A stretch of 64,000 bases of DNA from an uncultured Dokdonia sp. (GTDB lineage: Bacteria > Bacteroidota > Bacteroidia > Flavobacteriales > Flavobacteriaceae): contig NZ_CALEMI010000138.1 of the NCBI RefSeq assembly GCF_937910895.1, positions 5,280 through 69,279 on the forward strand. Direction: 5' to 3'. A program made the position numbers and the translations under genes. Below are positions 1 through 47,733 of the stretch, piece after piece. The notes below the pieces were generated by a model. That model had not been told where the DNA came from. It searched no databases and was given only the letters and a program-made list of their open reading frames with translations. Position 1 is the first letter of the stretch. Every line of letters begins with the position of its first letter.

Positions 1-2150
1 GCTATATGAGTAACATTGGCTGGAATTGTAATACTTGTTAATTGGTTATTACGAAAGCCTTGCCCACCTATAGACACCAAATTATTGGGTAATATAACAC
101 TCGTTAATTGGTTATTGCGAAAACTACTTGCTCCAATACTCACTATCGTATTAGGAAGGATCACACTTGTTAAATCGCTAGCATCAAACGCGCTACCTCC
201 TATTGCGGTGACTGTAAAATCTGAATCACCACTACTAACCATAGCATCAATAACAAGGTCCTGAGGAACAGCGATTCCTCCTGTAATCGTCACTTCATTA
301 GGGGATATTGATGAAACCGTGTAGTTCAAATTATTTTCAGTAAAGATGTCTCCCTCTTCAAAATTAATCACTCCATTTACCGAATTAAAATTTACCCAAC
401 CCACAGCTTCATAAGCTGCTTCTGTGCCTTCTGGGACTGTTAAGTCTATGTTATTTTCGTTACTAAAAGAATCGTTACTAGTTCCTAAAACAACACTAGG
501 TGGTGTTGGATTTAAAGAGTTAATACTATTTAAAGTCGAATTATTAAAAGCAAGTTGACCAATACTTACTACATTTTCTGGCAGTAGAAGACTTGCCAAT
601 TCATTATTTTCGAAAGACCTAAAACCTATTGTTTCCAAGCTACTTGGAAATGTAACACTCGTTAAATCATTGCTGGAAAAACACCTGTTAGGTACGTCTG
701 TAACCCCTTCTGGTATAACTACAGAAGTAAGTGCATTAAATCGAAATGCCTCAGTACCTATAGCGCGGATCGTAGTAGGAAAAGTTACACTTGTCAAACC
801 AGAAGATTCAAAAGCTCCATCGCCAATACCCACGACAGTAAAGCTAACATCTTGGATTAATACGGCTTCAGGAATTATTAAATTGGTTGGTATGGTAGTT
901 CCTCCCGCTGCTTCAACTTCTGTAGGATCTAAGGCTGTAACCGTGTAGGAAAATCCACCAACCTCTAATGTATTTCCTACTTCTAGTGGTAATTCTCCAT
1001 TGATCGTTGCAAATCCTGTCCATCCATTATTAAGATAGTCTAGTTGTGTGCCTGATGGTATGGTTAAATCGATATTACTTCGTACCCCAAAAGAATCGGT
1101 AGTTACGTCTGTCGTGATATTTGCAGGAGTGCTTCCCAAAGCAGTAACCGCAACGAGCGGATTACCTAGAAATGCTCGAAAAGCGACAAGGCTTACATTC
1201 TCTGGAATAGTAATACTCGTTAATTGATTATTACGAAATGCCTGCCCTTCTATCGTTGTGATTGTATTAGGCAACGAAACACTTGTTAAACCATTAGAAA
1301 TAAACGCACTACTTCCTACAGCAGTAACTACAAAATCTGATCCTCCGTTGCTCACAGTTTCATTGATTGTGAGATTTTGAGGAACTGAATTCCCCCCTGT
1401 AACGCTCACTTCATTAGGAGATAATGAGGTTACCGTGTAATTCAAATTATTTTCGATAAAGGTATCACCTACTTCAAAGTTAACCACTCCATTCACTGAA
1501 TTAAAACCTACCCAACCTGCTGCTTCATAAGCCGCTTCTGTGCTATCTGGTACAGTTAAATCTATATTTCCTTCATTAGCAAAAGAGTCATTGCTTCCTC
1601 CTATAGCAATACTTGGCGGCATAGGATTTAAAGAGTTAATAGCATTTAATGGAGAACTTTTAAAAGCTAATTGTGAAATGTTCGTAATATTTTCTGGTAA
1701 AACAAGATTTGTAAGGTCATTATTTTCAAAAGATCTAAAACCAATCGTTTCAAGGCTATTAGGTAAGGTAACACTTGTTAAATCATTATTAGAGAAACAA
1801 CGTTGTGGGATATCAGTTATTCCCTCTGGTATAACCACTGTCGTTAAAGCGTTAAAACGAAATGTTACTTGACCCAAATCCCGTAGTGTACTGGGAAAGC
1901 TCACACTCGTTAAGCCTACGCTTTCAAAGGCAGCATTTGCTATAGCTACTACCGTAAAAGTATCTACCCCATCTGATACGGTTGCAGGTATGATTAAACT
2001 GGAAATAGCAGTAGTACTTCCTGTGAGTGTTACCTCGTTAGGGTTGATAGCTATTACCTCGTAGTTTAACCCATCTGCTGTAAAGGTGGTTTGCGCAAAA
2101 CTCGTTGCAGCTACTAAAAAAAAAACGAAATTTAATAAGTGTTGTTTCAT
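1..2150 (-). CDS. BspA-type leucine-rich repeat (LRR_5) surface protein, 3' end outside window
   Basis: Absent from the ORF track because it has no stop in the window. Translated by hand at both ends and over the 5' part: MKQHLLNFVFFLVAATSFAQ signal peptide, repeats such as LTSVTLPNSLETIGFRSFENN; same frame at position 3 (FRNNQLTSITIPANVTHI). Confidence 0.9.
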   Translation of the reverse strand, partial: MKQHLLNFVFFLVAATSFAQTTFTADGLNYEVIAINPNEVTLTGSTTAISSLIIPATVSDGVDTFTVVAIANAAFESVGLTSVSFPSTLRDLGQVTFRFNALTTVVIPEGITDIPQRCFSNNDLTSVTLPNSLETIGFRSFENNDLTNLVLPENITNISQLAFKSSPLNAINSLNPMPPSIAIGGSNDSFANEGNIDLTVPDSTEAAYEAAGWVGFNSVNGVVNFEVGDTFIENNLNYTVTSLSPNEVSVTGGNSVPQNLTINETVSNGGSDFVVTAVGSSAFISNGLTSVSLPNTITTIEGQAFRNNQLTSITIPENVSLVAFRAFLGNPLVAVTALGSTPANITTDVTTDSFGVRSNIDLTIPSGTQLDYLNNGWTGFATINGELPLEVGNTLEVGGFSYTVTALDPTEVEAAGGTTIPTNLIIPEAVLIQDVSFTVVGIGDGAFESSGLTSVTFPTTIRAIGTEAFRFNALTSVVIPEGVTDVPNRCFSSNDLTSVTFPSSLETIGFRSFENNELASLLLPENVVSIGQLAFNNSTLNSINSLNPTPPSVVLGTSNDSFSNENNIDLTVPEGTEAAYEAVGWVNFNSVNGVINFEEGDIFTENNLNYTVSSISPNEVTITGGIAVPQDLVIDAMVSSGDSDFTVTAIGGSAFDASDLTSVILPNTIVSIGASSFRNNQLTSVILPNNLVSIGGQGFRNNQLTSITIPANVTHI
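2116..2125 (-). repeat. T10 homopolymer in the signal-peptide codons of the LRR gene
   Basis: A10 on + strand; reads GTT TTT TTT TTA in frame. Confidence 0.9.
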
Positions 2151-44033: not shown

Positions 44034-45008
44034 TTACATATCTAATAGGTAAGCAAATATTAAGGGTGCTACGATAGTAGCATCAGATTCTATAATGAAT
44101 TTTGGTGTATTCATATCCAATTTTCCCCACGTGATTTTTTCATTAGGTACAGCACCACTATAAGACCCATAACTTGTTGTAGAGTCACTTATCTGACAAA
44201 AATAACTCCAGAAAGGGGTATCGGTACGTTCCATATCTTGATATAACATAGGTACTACGCAAATAGGAAAATCACCAGCTATCCCTCCTCCTATTTGAAA
44301 AAAGCCAATTCCATTAGTAGAATTATCTGTATACCAATCTGCCAGGTAAGTCATATATTCTATCCCTGACTTCATGGTACTTGCTTTAAGTTCTCCTTTC
44401 ATCACGTAGCTAGCAAAAATATTACCCATCGTACTATCTTCCCAACCAGGAACAATAATCGGTAGGTTTGCTTTTGCAGCGGCATACATCCAAGAGTCTT
44501 TTATATCTATCTCGTAATGTTTTTCTAATACTCCAGAAAGTAATAGCTTGTACATAAACTCATGAGGGAAATAACGCTCACCAGCAGCTTCAGCATCTTT
44601 CCATATTTTGACAATATGCTCTTGAATCCTTCTAAAGGCCTCTTCTTCAGGAATACAAGTATCTGTCACACGGTTTAAACCACGTTCTAACAAATCCCAT
44701 TCGTCTTGAGGAGTTAAATCGCGATAGTTAGGTACACGCTCATAGTGACTGTGTGCGACAAGATTCATAATATCTTCTTCTAGGTTTGCCCCAGTACAAG
44801 AGATAATATGTACTTTATCTTGACGAATAATTTCTGCAAATATCTTCCCTAACTCTGCTGTACTCATAGCGCCTGCTAGAGATACTAACATTTTAGAACC
44901 TTTTGCGAGTTGATCTTCATATCCTTTGGCAGCATCTACCAGAGAGGCTGCATTAAAATGCAAATAGTATGTAGACAAAAATTGAGAAATAGCTCCTTTA
45001 GTCTTCAT
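44034..45008 (-). CDS. deoxyhypusine synthase-like protein (probable homospermidine synthase)
   Basis: GAMSTAELG, TGANLEED, QIGGG, SGAVPNEKITWGK. Confidence 0.9.
   Translation of the reverse strand: MKTKGAISQFLSTYYLHFNAASLVDAAKGYEDQLAKGSKMLVSLAGAMSTAELGKIFAEIIRQDKVHIISCTGANLEEDIMNLVAHSHYERVPNYRDLTPQDEWDLLERGLNRVTDTCIPEEEAFRRIQEHIVKIWKDAEAAGERYFPHEFMYKLLLSGVLEKHYEIDIKDSWMYAAAKANLPIIVPGWEDSTMGNIFASYVMKGELKASTMKSGIEYMTYLADWYTDNSTNGIGFFQIGGGIAGDFPICVVPMLYQDMERTDTPFWSYFCQISDSTTSYGSYSGAVPNEKITWGKLDMNTPKFIIESDATIVAPLIFAYLLDM
44161..44188 (-). promoter_or_regulatory. possible intragenic ECF-motif site 10
   Basis: GTGAC-N17-GTCTTA inside the DHS-like gene, about 130 bp before the 44031 start; may be a codon coincidence. 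Confidence 0.35.
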
Positions 45009-45939
45009 CTTGATCGTATTTTAACTTATTGATATTATTTTCTTCTTGAAAACTATAAAGATTGTCATTTTCTTGATCCTGATCTTGCTCTTTGAATTTG
45101 TAGCTCAACATTTTGTAATAAAGTTTTGCGGCAAGAAAATCTGAAGACTTATCTACTTCATTAGGACATAGTTCTACAATATCAAATCCAACTACATTTT
45201 TTTGTTCGAATATACTTTTAAGGAATTCTAAGGTTTCGTACCAGAATAATCCTCCTGGCTCTGGTGTTCCTGTGCTTGGCATAATTGAAGGATCGAGTGC
45301 ATCCAAGTCAAAAGTGATATATACGTTGTCACCTAATGATTCTACAACCTTGTCCACCCAATAATCATCTACTGCCATCTCATGTGCAAAAAACACATTA
45401 TCTGGACGCATTACAGACTTTTCTGAGATATCCATACTACGAATCCCTACTTGTATTAGGTTTGTAGTTTCGTTTGCTTCGTGTAAAGCGCACGCATGGT
45501 TATAAGGTGAACCTTCGTATTCTTTTCTTAAATCTGCATGTGCATCTATGTGCAGTACTGTAAGATCTTGATAGCATTCATTAAAAGCACGTATAGCTCC
45601 TATAGACACAGAATGTTCTCCACCAAACATAGTGACAAACTTGTTGCGTTTTATATGATCCTTGATCATTTCATGTACTGTATTCACCATAGCCTCTGGA
45701 GAGCTACTTTCTGTGATAGCATCTGCTAGGTGGATTCCTTGTTTGTATACTTGAGTATCGGTTTCTATATCGTAAAGCTCCATATTTTCCGAAGCGTGTA
45801 AAAATGCTTCTGGACCTTTATCAGCTCCTTTACCCCAAGTACTTGTTCCATCATAAGGAACGGGAATTAATACTATTTTTGAAGCATCAAGGCTTGCATA
45901 TTTTTCTGGAATCCCTGCGTATGTATTAAACGTTTTCAT
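44998..45939 (-). CDS. speB: agmatinase
   Basis: GGEHSVS, DAHADL, FDLDALDP, TGTPEPGG. Confidence 0.92.
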   Translation of the reverse strand: MKTFNTYAGIPEKYASLDASKIVLIPVPYDGTSTWGKGADKGPEAFLHASENMELYDIETDTQVYKQGIHLADAITESSSPEAMVNTVHEMIKDHIKRNKFVTMFGGEHSVSIGAIRAFNECYQDLTVLHIDAHADLRKEYEGSPYNHACALHEANETTNLIQVGIRSMDISEKSVMRPDNVFFAHEMAVDDYWVDKVVESLGDNVYITFDLDALDPSIMPSTGTPEPGGLFWYETLEFLKSIFEQKNVVGFDIVELCPNEVDKSSDFLAAKLYYKMLSYKFKEQDQDQENDNLYSFQEENNINKLKYDQDED

Positions 45940-45977: not shown

Positions 45978-47435
45978 TTAAATAGGCTCACTAACTTCAG
46001 GTATGGTTTTTTTTGCTTTCGCGAAAGCGTTATTAATATCATAATCATATCCAAGAATAGACAGTAATTGCTCCGAGGTTTGCTGGTTTGCAAACACCGA
46101 AGTTGTGATCTCTCCATCTTCATTGCGATCTATTAAAATATGTTTAGGTGTTGGGATCAAGCAATGCTGCAATCCACCAAAACCTCCGATGGTCTCTTGA
46201 TAAGCACCGGTATTGAAAAAGCCGATATAGAGTGGTTTTTCTTGAGTAAATTTAGGTAAATAGATTGCATTCATGTGTTGCTCACTGTTGTAATAATCAT
46301 CACTGTCACAGGTAAGACCTCCTAATAAAACGCGTTCATATTCTTTATCCCACCCAGAAATAGGCAACATCACAAACCGTTTATTAATTGCCCAAGTATC
46401 TGGCATTGTGGTGATAAATGAAGAATTAATCATATTCCACTTTTCTCGATCATTTTGTTTTTTCTGATAGAGCACTTCATAAATAGCGCCTCCTGCTTCA
46501 CCTACCGTAAAGCTACCAAATTCTGTAAAGATATTAGGTACATCAACGCCAGCCTCATCACAGGTTTGCTTAATCTGTCGGATGATCTCATCAATCATGT
46601 ACGCATAATCATACTCAAAAGCGAGCGAATTTTTTATAGGAAAACCACCGCCTATATTGAGACTATCAAGCTTTGGATTTTCTTTTTTAAGAGCTACGTA
46701 CACCTTCAAACACTTAGAAAGTTCATTCCAGTAATAAGCTGTATCACGTATCCCTGTATTAATAAAAAAATGTAGCATCTTAAGCGTTACCTTAGGATTG
46801 TCCTTAATCTCACTGTTGTAAAAAGGTACAATATTTCTATATCCTATCCCAAGTCTGGACGTATAAAATTCAAACTTAGGCTCTTCTTCTGATGCAATTC
46901 GGATTCCTATAGTATAGGTGCCGTCTATGACTTCGCTAAGTAAGTTAATTTCTTCATAGTTATCAATAATAGGTATGCAGTTTTTATGTCCGTTATTGAT
47001 AAGTCTTGCAATATTTTGTATGTATTGATCACGTTTAAAACCATTGCTTATAACATAAGTTTCATTCGTTATTTTTCCTTGTGCTTTCAGGTTTTCAACA
47101 ATATCCATATCAAAAGCAGATGAGGTTTCAATATGAATATCATTTTTAAGAGCCTCGTCTAACACGTGTTTAAAGTGTGAGCTCTTGGTGCAATAGCAGT
47201 AATTATATGAGCCTTTATAGTCATTTTCTTTAATTGCATTTGCAAACCATCCTTTTGCTCTGTTTATATTTTCAGATATTTTAGGGAGATATGTAAACTT
47301 TAATGGCGTACCATATTTTGCTGTAAGCGCCATGAGATCAATCCCATGAAAATTGAGTGTATTATTTTTAAGTGTGAACTCCTCTTGTGGGAAATCAAAA
47401 GTTTGATCTATAAGATCAATATATTTTGTTTTCAT
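45978..47435 (-). CDS. speA: arginine decarboxylase (fold type III PLP)
   Basis: YCTKSSHF, SRLG, LNIGGG, TCDSDDYY, GAYQE; directly upstream of speB. Confidence 0.88.
   Translation of the reverse strand: MKTKYIDLIDQTFDFPQEEFTLKNNTLNFHGIDLMALTAKYGTPLKFTYLPKISENINRAKGWFANAIKENDYKGSYNYCYCTKSSHFKHVLDEALKNDIHIETSSAFDMDIVENLKAQGKITNETYVISNGFKRDQYIQNIARLINNGHKNCIPIIDNYEEINLLSEVIDGTYTIGIRIASEEEPKFEFYTSRLGIGYRNIVPFYNSEIKDNPKVTLKMLHFFINTGIRDTAYYWNELSKCLKVYVALKKENPKLDSLNIGGGFPIKNSLAFEYDYAYMIDEIIRQIKQTCDEAGVDVPNIFTEFGSFTVGEAGGAIYEVLYQKKQNDREKWNMINSSFITTMPDTWAINKRFVMLPISGWDKEYERVLLGGLTCDSDDYYNSEQHMNAIYLPKFTQEKPLYIGFFNTGAYQETIGGFGGLQHCLIPTPKHILIDRNEDGEITTSVFANQQTSEQLLSILGYDYDINNAFAKAKKTIPEVSEPI
46015..46028. 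repeat. palindrome copy 8 (speA tail, AFAKA)
   Basis: Perfect 14-mer. Confidence 0.9.
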
Positions 47436-47509
47436 TATAGTGTATGTTTGAAAAATTAGAATGTGTTAGATGTTGCTTGTAAAGCAATTGAAGATATATT
47501 TCTAATAAC

Positions 47510-47680
47510 TCAAATACGAAAGATAAAAATAGTAGAAGGATCAAAGCTTTTTTGCTCCAACAGACGATACATCGTTTTAATTTCAGAAGTCAACCTGATA
47601 ATTCGGTTCCCTATCCCTAGGGTAGCTTTTGGAGTAGACTTCTTTATACTCCTGAGCCCAAATCTGAAAAAATCTTTCAT
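47510..47680 (-). CDS. candidate speA leader peptide (56-aa uORF)
   Basis: Hand translation MKDFFRFGLRSIKKSTPKATLGIGNRIIRLTSEIKTMYRLLEQKSFDPSTIFIFRI*, lying between the promoter box and speA. Confidence 0.55.
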   Translation of the reverse strand: MKDFFRFGLRSIKKSTPKATLGIGNRIIRLTSEIKTMYRLLEQKSFDPSTIFIFRI

Positions 47681-47725
47681 TTAATTAAAGGCAATTCGTT
47701 CTTTAATGTGAACTCATTATCATAA

Positions 47726-47733
47726 CAAACATA
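47726..47733 (-). promoter_or_regulatory. Bacteroidota sigma-A -7 element for the speA leader
   Basis: TATGTTTG matches TAnnTTTG. Confidence 0.55.

What the first reader, a model, noticed from the sequence alone, without database searches (positions are those of the whole stretch)
47436..47733. 56-codon uORF in a roughly 280-nt speA leader: candidate polyamine- or arginine-sensing arrest peptide
Seen: a TAnnTTTG box at 47726-47733, an ATG about 45 nt downstream in an A/T-rich context with A at -3, 56 open codons with 6 Arg (AGA, AGG x2, CGA, CGT x2) ending IFIFRI-TGA, then a TTGCTT-tac-AAGCAA hairpin and speA 74 nt after the stop. It is below the ORF-track cutoff. Established: polyamine genes are often controlled by ribosome-stalling leaders (SpeFL for speF; eukaryotic AdoMetDC and antizyme-inhibitor uORFs). 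Inference: an unrelated Bacteroidota analog.
Basis: partly seen in the sequence, partly recalled or inferred. Interest (0 to 1): 0.65.

Follow-up and report, generated by a model that had tools for sequence, protein, structure and literature searches.

The report
Translated pseudoknot leader before speA
The small reading frame ahead of the arginine decarboxylase (polyamine) operon is real and conserved across about half of the Flavobacteriaceae genera sampled. It is only half of the device: it is laid over a conserved pseudoknotted RNA, and I found no published description of this combined leader.

Summary

**Reading frame.** I collected 107 copies of this leader. In 104 the same frame is open for 50-66 codons. 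It starts at A/T/G-TG at one fixed position. It ends in TGA in 95 of the 107, although TGA is rare in this genome. Frame 0 has no stops, against hundreds in the other frames. The last 12 codons change mainly at third positions (58/33/166, p=5e-26). The consensus is F-[VI]-P-[TY]-T-x3-[IFL]-[RQ]-[IV]-UGA.

**RNA structure.** The first 33 codons show no codon periodicity (156/154/168). They form a covarying RNA with helices P0-P3 and a pseudoknot: 90% of cells are paired against 28-52% in slid controls, and 27 of 31 pairs change on both sides.

**Known families.** Rfam, Pfam, NCBIfam, the PDB sequences and the literature search hold nothing like it.

**Best reading (inferred).** The folded RNA blocks initiation of the leader ORF. 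A ribosome held at the ORF's stop codon opens the speA start region.

**What is not supported.** Arg-richness is not conserved, and no ligand is known.

**Earlier scan notes.** The same leader was noted on two other genomes (e1-5166015, e1-5192680).

**Verdict.** A new variant of uORF and riboswitch-type leaders.

The parts
47726..47733 (-). Bacteroidota-type -7 promoter box TATGTTTG. The inferred transcription start is about 7 nt downstream, which gives a leader of about 280 nt.
   Evidence: Read. Nearly invariant in same-genus relatives (A1). The transcription start is inferred, not mapped.
47585..47694 (-). Aptamer-like RNA domain. P0 47692-47689 / 47596-47593. P1 47663-47658 / 47606-47601. 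P2 47657-47649 / 47634-47625. P3 47622-47618 / 47613-47609. Pseudoknot: P2 loop 47643-47637 with 47591-47585. The leader ORF's start codon lies between P0 and P1.
   Evidence: Compensatory changes are visible in A1 and A2. Pair counts: 87-90% of cells paired against 25-53% in slid controls, and 27 of 31 pairs changed on both sides. Window coordinates were mapped.
47510..47680 (-). Leader ORF of 56 codons plus a TGA stop.
   Evidence: The frame is open in 104 of 107 homologous leaders, with start codons TTG 66, ATG 35 and GTG 5. Frame 0 has no stops, against 352 and 178 in the other frames.
47513..47545 (-). Conserved C-terminal peptide motif, here FDPSTIFIFRI. Family consensus: F-[VI]-P-[TY]-T-x3-[IFL]-[RQ]-[IV].
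   Evidence: Residue frequencies counted from the stop are. Differences by codon position in the last 12 codons are 58/33/166, p=5e-26.
47510..47512 (-). Conserved UGA stop codon of the leader ORF.
   Evidence: TGA in 95 of 107 leaders. Long frames in the window end in TAA 30, TAG 4, TGA 3.
47451..47505 (-). Spacer hairpin. Outer stem 47505-47500 / 47461-47456, apical stem 47487-47482 / 47478-47473, then a U-run at 47455-47451. It resembles a terminator, but only weakly in this genome.
   Evidence: Folds. A hairpin of variable sequence occupies this place in the relatives. Only about one third score -6 kcal/mol or better as hairpin plus U-tract.
47442..47517 (-). Candidate long-range helix. 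The last leader codons plus the stop (GTATTTGA, 47517-47510) pair with TCAAACATAC (47451-47442), just upstream of the speA start.
   Evidence: Folds and sequences. Mean duplex energy is -5.85 against -4.57 +/- 0.15 for permuted partners. Blocking the stop region raises the unpaired probability of the speA start region from 0.44 to 0.58 across the family, and from 0.50 to 0.68 for the window. This is prediction only.
45978..47435 (-). speA-like PLP-dependent decarboxylase (485 aa), the first gene of the controlled operon.
   Evidence: Pfam PF02784. The best NCBIfam match is arginine decarboxylase, below that model's cut-off.
44034..45939 (-). Agmatinase (44998-45939) and a deoxyhypusine-synthase-like protein, probably homospermidine synthase (44034-45008).
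   Evidence: Pfam PF00491 and PF01916. NCBIfam TIGR01230 agmatinase scores above its cut-off.

Best explanation
This is a composite cis-regulatory leader of the speA-speB-homospermidine-synthase operon.

**Shown.**
- The leader RNA folds into a conserved structure: a junction of helices P0-P3 plus a pseudoknot between the P2 loop and the 3' tail.
- The same nucleotides, from a start codon enclosed between P0 and P1, are read as a roughly 55-codon ORF.
- The first 33 codons of that ORF are shaped by the RNA. The last 11 codons are under peptide-level selection and end at a conserved UGA.

**Inferred.**
- When the RNA is folded, stabilised by an unidentified ligand (a polyamine of this pathway is the obvious candidate), a ribosome cannot start on the leader ORF. 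The speA start region then stays paired with the leader ORF's 3' end and the spacer, and in some species a terminator-like hairpin forms. The operon is off.
- When the RNA is open, the ORF is translated and its C-terminal motif holds the ribosome at the UGA. That ribosome covers the partner strand and frees the A-rich, Shine-Dalgarno-less speA start region. The operon is on.

The confidence of 0.45 applies to this whole chain of events. That the composite element is real and cis-regulatory I put at about 0.9.
For: **ORF.**
- 104 of 107 copies are open for 50-66 codons from N-TG (N = A, T or G), and 95 of the 107 copies end in TGA.
- Frame 0 has 0 stops against 352 and 178 in the other frames. 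In the variable and C-terminal part the counts are 0 against 78 and 109.
- An independent set drawn from 30 other genera gave 29 of 30 open.
- The last 12 codons differ 58/33/166 by codon position, p=5e-26.

**RNA.**
- The first 33 codons differ 156/154/168 by position, p=0.70.
- 25 of the 26 nested pairs have changes on both sides, and 88% of cells are paired against 25-51% in slid controls.
- The pseudoknot is 97.6% paired on an alignment whose model did not include it.

**Linkage of the two parts.** Of the 28 speA loci where the nucleotide profile found no RNA, 27 also lack the peptide motif; the 28th, L100, keeps the motif.

**Output.**
- A ribosome-sized block at the leader stop raises the predicted openness of the speA start region from 0.44 to 0.58 (52 of 97 rise by more than 0.1). 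A block 48 nt upstream gives 0.45 (3 of 97).
- Duplex energy between the ORF end and the speA start region is -5.85 against -4.57 +/- 0.15 for permuted partners.
- Clade-specific matching sequences are visible, such as TTTCGTA/TACGAAA against TTTCGC/GCGAAA.
Against: - No ligand, stall or transcript end has been observed.
- The start is TTG in 62% of copies, a weak start codon.
- The masking helix is strong (-8 kcal/mol or better) in only 20% of leaders.
- Terminator-like hairpins are convincing in only about a third, so the output step may differ between clades.
- A few copies precede genes unrelated to polyamines: SET domain plus NUDIX, a glyoxalase-family protein plus TerB, and a small protein with a signal-peptide-like N-terminus. 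This does not point clearly to a polyamine ligand.
- The sequences are related, so the p-values overstate independence.
Confidence: 0.45

Rival explanations
1. The nascent peptide is the sensor. The C-terminal motif blocks RF2-mediated release at UGA only when a small molecule (arginine, agmatine or a polyamine) sits in the tunnel or the peptidyl-transferase centre, as in TnaC, SpeFL or the fungal arginine attenuator peptide. The RNA fold then only sets the initiation rate or timing.
For: The conserved residues lie at -1 to -3 and -7 to -11 from the stop, the span between the catalytic centre and the tunnel constriction. UGA is kept in 89% of copies in a genome that rarely uses it. The block-at-stop prediction fits this reading equally well.
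Against: It does not explain why an elaborate, covarying pseudoknot with invariant unpaired bases has been kept for the whole history of the element. Residue -2 alternates between R and Q. There is no similarity to any solved arrest peptide.
Confidence: 0.25
2. The element is a pure riboswitch or protein-binding RNA, and the open frame is a by-product of RNA conservation.
For: The first 33 codons carry no coding signature. Amino-acid changes there follow the compensatory base changes.
Against: The poorly conserved middle and the C-terminal part have 0 in-frame stops against 78 and 109 in the other frames. All length changes are multiples of three. The last 12 codons show third-position bias at p=5e-26. 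The start position is always A/T/G-TG.
Confidence: 0.05
3. The ORF encodes a free-standing small protein of about 55 aa with a function of its own, for example an antizyme-like regulator of SpeA.
For: It is occasionally annotated as a hypothetical protein. It is basic and hydrophobic.
Against: Sixty percent of the sequence evolves without regard to the amino acids it encodes. There is no Pfam, NCBIfam or PDB relative. It is always in cis, directly before the regulated gene.
Confidence: 0.04
4. It is a classical amino-acid attenuator, in which ribosome speed over Arg codons reports the supply of charged tRNA-Arg.
For: The window's ORF has 6 Arg codons. In Salmonella orf34, two Arg codons act this way (PMC6386406).
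Against: No run of Arg codons is conserved. The kept internal Arg codon lies inside helix P1. Residue -2 is as often Q as R.
Confidence: 0.03

Closest known systems
speF leader with orf34 / SpeFL in gamma-proteobacteria (PMC6386406; SpeFL as an ornithine-sensing arrest peptide is from established knowledge)
   Same: A leader ORF lies ahead of a polyamine-pathway decarboxylase. In that system, translating the ORF counters premature termination and unfolds a structure that sequesters the downstream ribosome-binding site. The same logic is inferred here.
   Different: There is no sequence similarity. The controlled gene is different (arginine, not ornithine, decarboxylase) and so is the phylum, which has no Shine-Dalgarno sequences. 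Here the ORF runs through a covarying pseudoknotted domain, and only its last 11 residues are selected as peptide.
mgtA leader of Salmonella: a Mg2+-sensing RNA with the embedded ORF mgtL (established knowledge)
   Same: A sensing RNA fold and a short translated ORF share one leader, and translation of the ORF changes which RNA structure forms.
   Different: mgtL is short, proline-rich and occupies a small part of the leader. Here the ORF covers the entire fold and carries a conserved C-terminal motif and a conserved UGA stop.
TnaC, the tryptophanase leader peptide (PMC8429421)
   Same: A peptide with conserved residues spaced over about 12 positions from the C-terminus, ending at a UGA. The ribosome held at the stop controls the downstream genes.
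   Different: The sequence is unrelated. TnaC has no aptamer-like RNA. Ligand dependence is unproven here.
Spermidine riboswitch, a SAM-I variant (PMC10853860)
   Same: An RNA element before polyamine biosynthesis genes that acts as an off switch.
   Different: The fold is different: no SAM-I or any other Rfam match. That class is not translated, and it works through an adjacent terminator.

Membership tests
SpeFL / orf34 leader peptide | Sequence homology to SpeFL | tested here: not met
   No NCBIfam family for any of the 23 peptides at E<=1 beyond two chance hits. No Pfam family. No PDB nascent-chain match.
SpeFL / orf34 leader peptide | Located before speF (ornithine decarboxylase) and potE | tested here: not met
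   The downstream genes are a speA-like decarboxylase, an agmatinase and a DHS-like protein.
Arrest peptide (functional class) | C-terminal residues conserved as amino acids, acting in cis | tested here: met
   Consensus and frequencies. Codon-position bias of 58/33/166.
Arrest peptide (functional class) | Ribosome stalls at a defined codon | not testable with these tools
   Requires toeprinting or ribosome profiling.
Riboswitch | Conserved structured domain supported by covariation | tested here: met
Riboswitch | Direct, selective binding of a small ligand | not testable with these tools
   Requires in-line probing or ITC. The gene context suggests polyamines, but a few copies precede unrelated genes.
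Riboswitch | Expression platform that competes with the aptamer | tested here: inconclusive
   No adjacent competing helix was seen. The terminator-like hairpin lies about 90 nt away and is convincing in only about a third of leaders. Coupling through translation is inferred.
SAM-I-variant spermidine riboswitch | SAM-I fold | tested here: not met
   No Rfam match at E<=10 in the window or at E<=1 in 14 other loci.
Classical attenuator leader peptide | Run of codons for the regulatory amino acid | tested here: not met
   No conserved Arg run.

The most novel reading that the evidence does not exclude
A two-input leader in which one stretch of RNA is both aptamer and message. The pseudoknot would sense the pathway's product (a polyamine such as homospermidine) and gate initiation of the leader ORF. 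The nascent C-terminal motif would independently sense the substrate (arginine or agmatine) by blocking RF2 release at UGA. That would make it a new riboswitch class and a new arrest-peptide class fused in one element.
Probability: 0.15. Interest if true: 0.9.

Novelty: new variant of a known kind. Interest (0 to 1): 0.7.

Why it matters
- **Polyamine control.** Outside the enterobacteria and the recently found SAM-I-variant spermidine switch, polyamine control in bacteria is poorly understood.
- **A testable element.** This would give the marine Flavobacteriaceae, major degraders of algal carbon, a defined regulatory element for their homospermidine pathway.
- **Dual coding.** It is an unusually clear case of one sequence under two codes: RNA structure for the first 33 codons and peptide for the last 11.
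- **Translation without Shine-Dalgarno.** This phylum lacks Shine-Dalgarno sequences, so it is a good place to learn how leader translation is coupled to downstream initiation.
- **Candidate new classes.** Both a candidate new aptamer and a candidate new termination-arrest motif can be tested directly with standard assays.

Tried and rejected
- **Rfam.** Permissive scans of the window leader and of 14 other loci gave no family for the element.
- **Protein libraries.** Pfam, NCBIfam and PDB-sequence searches with the peptides gave nothing. The large protein database holds only sporadic 'hypothetical protein' calls.
- **Literature.** Seven literature searches found no description. The 'speA' hits in the F. 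johnsoniae ribosome-profiling paper were the word 'Spearman'.
- **Spread beyond the family.** No hit in 150 genomes across the class, under strict filters. No hit in 16 speA loci that lack the motif, with filters off.
- **Peptide-only leaders.** None among 27 speA loci without the RNA.
- **Universal intrinsic terminator.** Rejected: only 31% score -6 kcal/mol or better.
- **A conserved hairpin P4 in the variable middle.** Weak, with a mean z-score of -0.87.
- **Short alternative-frame ORFs.** ORFs ending ..FFHIRA overlap the start in several relatives. They arise from a TAG inside helix P2 and are absent from the window, so I judged them incidental.
- **Ligand from gene context.** The non-speA neighbours are too few and too mixed to name a ligand.

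Full report
**1. The observation**

- The box TATGTTTG lies at 47733-47726.
- The ATG is at 47680, 45 nt after the box, with A at -3.
- The frame has 56 codons, reading MKDFF...IFIFRI with six Arg, and stops at TGA 47512-47510.
- The hairpin TTGCTT-tac-AAGCAA lies at 47487-47473.
- The next gene starts 74 nt after the stop, at 47435.

Three genes follow.
- A 485-aa PLP decarboxylase. Its best NCBIfam match is arginine decarboxylase, below that model's cut-off.
- An agmatinase, which scores above its cut-off.
- A deoxyhypusine-synthase-like protein, probably homospermidine synthase.

Upstream lies an 852-nt gap and then an AraC/TPR regulator gene.

**2. The ORF is conserved and translated-like**

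I fetched speA loci from the same genus and from 80 named Flavobacteriaceae genomes. The closest speA genes are from Kordia and Aquimarina. An ORF at the same place, of the same length and with a similar ending turned up repeatedly.

A nucleotide profile of the leader core found the element in 67 of the upstream regions scanned. In 66 of them the window's frame runs 54-64 codons to a stop. A covariance-model scan of one genome from each of 150 other genera of the family, plus the window's own genome, found it in 74 of 151. In the 30 new loci fetched from that scan, 29 had the frame open for 54-56 codons. Within the window's genus, 18 of 34 genomes have it, tracking the presence of speA.

Pooled over 107 instances:
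- 104 have an open frame of 50-66 codons;
- the first codon is TTG in 66, ATG in 35, GTG in 5, and never CTG;
- the stop is TGA in 95, although long frames in the window end in TAA 30, TAG 4 and TGA 3.

Frame 0 has no stops in 3691 codons, against 352 and 178 in the other sense frames. In the poorly conserved middle plus C-terminal part alone the counts are 0 against 78 and 109. All length variants are multiples of three.

**3. Two different kinds of constraint along the ORF**

I compared phylogenetically independent nearest-neighbour pairs.
- The first 33 codons differ equally at the three codon positions: 156/154/168, p=0.70.
- The last 12 codons differ 58/33/166, p=5e-26.

Entropy by codon position shows the same split. 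Counted back from the stop, the C-terminal consensus is as follows.

| Position | Residue | Frequency |
|---|---|---|
| -11 | F | 84% |
| -10 | V or I | not tallied as a group |
| -9 | P | 82% |
| -8 | T or Y | not tallied as a group |
| -7 | T | 79% |
| -6 to -4 | any | not conserved |
| -3 | I, F or L | 97% |
| -2 | R or Q | 87% |
| -1 | I or V | 93% |
| stop | UGA | 89% |

So only the tail of the peptide is selected as peptide.

**4. The front of the ORF is a structured RNA**

Alignments show compensatory changes in four nested helices and a pseudoknot.
- P0 closes the domain and lies 5' of the start codon.
- P1 is TTCGG/CCGAA, with variants TTTGG/CCAAA, TCCGG/CCGGA and ACTCG/CGAGT.
- P2 is nine pairs long.
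- P3 has many variants, such as CCCTA/TAGGG, GCTTA/TAAGC and CTCGC/GCGAG.
- The pseudoknot pairs the P2 loop (GGAAGT or AGAAGTC) with the 3' tail (ACTTCC or GACTTCT).

The pair counts support the fold.
- On the MAFFT alignment, 87% of cells are paired against 28-53% when partners are slid, and 21 of 31 pairs change on both sides.
- On the model-based alignment of 102 hits, 25 of 26 nested pairs change on both sides.
- The pseudoknot was not part of the model, yet it is 97.6% paired, with GC/AU exchanges at two pairs.

Window coordinates for the helices are given under parts. The start codon sits between P0 and P1, so an initiating ribosome and the folded domain exclude each other. This last point is inferred from ribosome footprint size.

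**5. RNA and peptide go together; distribution**

- The nucleotide profile missed the RNA in 28 speA loci. Of these, 27 also lack the peptide motif; the 28th, L100, keeps the motif, and its aptamer was not checked.
- The RNA was not found in 150 genomes sampled across the class outside the family.
- It was not found in 16 speA loci without the motif when filters were switched off.
- Almost all copies precede speA.

The exceptions are few.
- A second copy in the window's own genome (contig C51) has a 62-codon ORF ending in TGA, before a SET-domain gene and a NUDIX gene.
- A divergent second copy in a Kordia genome precedes a 100-aa protein with a signal-peptide-like N-terminus and a weakly ATP-grasp-like protein.
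- A decayed copy in another genome precedes a homolog of that same small protein.
- A copy precedes a glyoxalase-family gene and a TerB gene, upstream of a weak copy before speA.

**6. Output side**

The spacer between the leader stop and speA has a median length of 76 nt. It is A/T-rich and almost free of G near the speA start.

A hairpin of variable sequence sits in the spacer. It is followed by a U-tract convincingly in about one third of leaders, with clear examples. In the window it is weak.

In many leaders the last codons plus the stop are complementary to the 10-25 nt before the speA start. In the window, GTATTTGA pairs with TCAAACATAC. Flagellimonas has GAATTTCGTA with TACGAAATTC, and a relative has the matching TTTCGC with GCGAAA. 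Mean duplex energy is -5.85 kcal/mol, against -4.57 +/- 0.15 for permuted partners and about -4.3 to -4.9 for shuffles. Only 20% reach -8 kcal/mol.

In partition-function folds, blocking -18 to +15 around the leader stop (a terminating ribosome) raises the unpaired probability of the speA start region from 0.44 to 0.58. In 52 of 97 leaders the rise exceeds 0.1. The same block placed 48 nt upstream gives 0.45, with 3 of 97 rising. These are predictions on related sequences, not measurements.

**7. Mechanism proposed**

Shown: a covarying pseudoknotted RNA and a leader ORF overlap, and the ORF has a conserved tail and a conserved UGA.

Inferred: the folded RNA, probably stabilised by a ligand, prevents initiation on the leader ORF. 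When the ORF is translated, its tail holds the ribosome at the UGA. That ribosome unmasks the speA start region, and in some clades it may also prevent termination.

I put about 0.9 on the composite element being real and cis-regulatory. I put about 0.45 on this particular chain of events. RNA-only, free small protein and Arg-codon attenuation are each unlikely, for the reasons given under rivals.

**8. Comparison with what is known**

- Rfam 15 has no match.
- The peptide has no Pfam, NCBIfam or PDB relative. In the large protein collection it appears only as scattered 'hypothetical protein' calls.
- The literature searches found no description.
- In function, the closest known system is the speF leader with orf34/SpeFL. 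There, translating the leader ORF counters Rho termination and unfolds a structure that hides the ribosome-binding site (PMC6386406).
- In architecture, the closest is the mgtA/mgtL type of leader, from established knowledge.
- The one validated polyamine riboswitch is a SAM-I variant (PMC10853860) and has a different fold.

This element is not a member of any of these families.

**9. Earlier notes of this scan**

Two follow-up notes on other genomes (e1-5166015, e1-5192680) describe the same Flavobacteriaceae leader, one of them as an ORF overlapping a pseudoknot. I reached the same reading independently before seeing them and re-tested it here. They are AI notes, not independent evidence.

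**10. Verdict**

This is a new variant of the known kind 'leader ORF plus sensing RNA'. The RNA fold and the C-terminal motif match no described family in any library searched. Interest 0.7.

Noticed in passing
G000 contig C51:30346-30487 (locus L103:1501-1713): A second copy of the leader lies in the window's own genome. The RNA scores 92 bits, and the ORF has 62 codons ending ..NNMRIC-TGA. It sits 154 nt before a SET-domain gene (PF00856), which is followed by a NUDIX hydrolase gene.
   Followed up: partly
L025:1827-2010 (- strand), Kordia sp. TARA_039_SRF: A second copy is transcribed divergently from the speA leader. The RNA scores 117 bits, and the ORF has 52 codons ending ..IYIRA. It precedes a 100-aa protein with a signal-peptide-like N-terminus (..TATYDGYEDGTYYFTD..) and a protein of 409 aa or more with a faint RimK/ATP-grasp likeness. 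A decayed copy precedes a homolog of the small protein in another genome (L134).
   Followed up: partly
L142:2950-3173 and 1673-1869 (- strand): Two copies lie in tandem in one genome. A strong copy (92 bits, 65-68-codon ORF) precedes a glyoxalase-family gene and a TerB gene. A weak copy (33.5 bits, 61-codon ORF ending ..LELRV) lies directly before speA.
   Followed up: partly
L107:1342-1420: A Flavo-1 RNA (RF01705, 58.7 bits, above the gathering score) lies about 80 nt upstream of the speA leader in this genome.
   Followed up: no
L008 (G009, same genus), about -235 to -67 before speA: speA is present but the RNA model does not match, so the aptamer sequence appears decayed. Even so, a 55-codon ORF from an aligned ATG remains open and ends ..YYYFKI.
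   Followed up: no
L028:2253-2506 (uncultured Aquimarina MAG): The aptamer is intact, but the C-terminal motif (..FMPSTIFEYRM) is in a different frame from the start. This is either a frameshift or an assembly error.
   Followed up: no
window 45978-47435: The speA-like decarboxylase has 485 aa, far shorter than the 624-636-position arginine decarboxylase models. It scores well below their cut-offs (170 bits against 369), so its substrate is inferred mainly from the agmatinase gene next to it.
   Followed up: no
window 47698-47713: An extra 5' hairpin (GTTC...GAAC) lies between the promoter box and P0. It is present in the window's clade, where the box is about 53 nt before the start. It is absent in most other genera, where the box is about 29 nt before the start.
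   Followed up: partly
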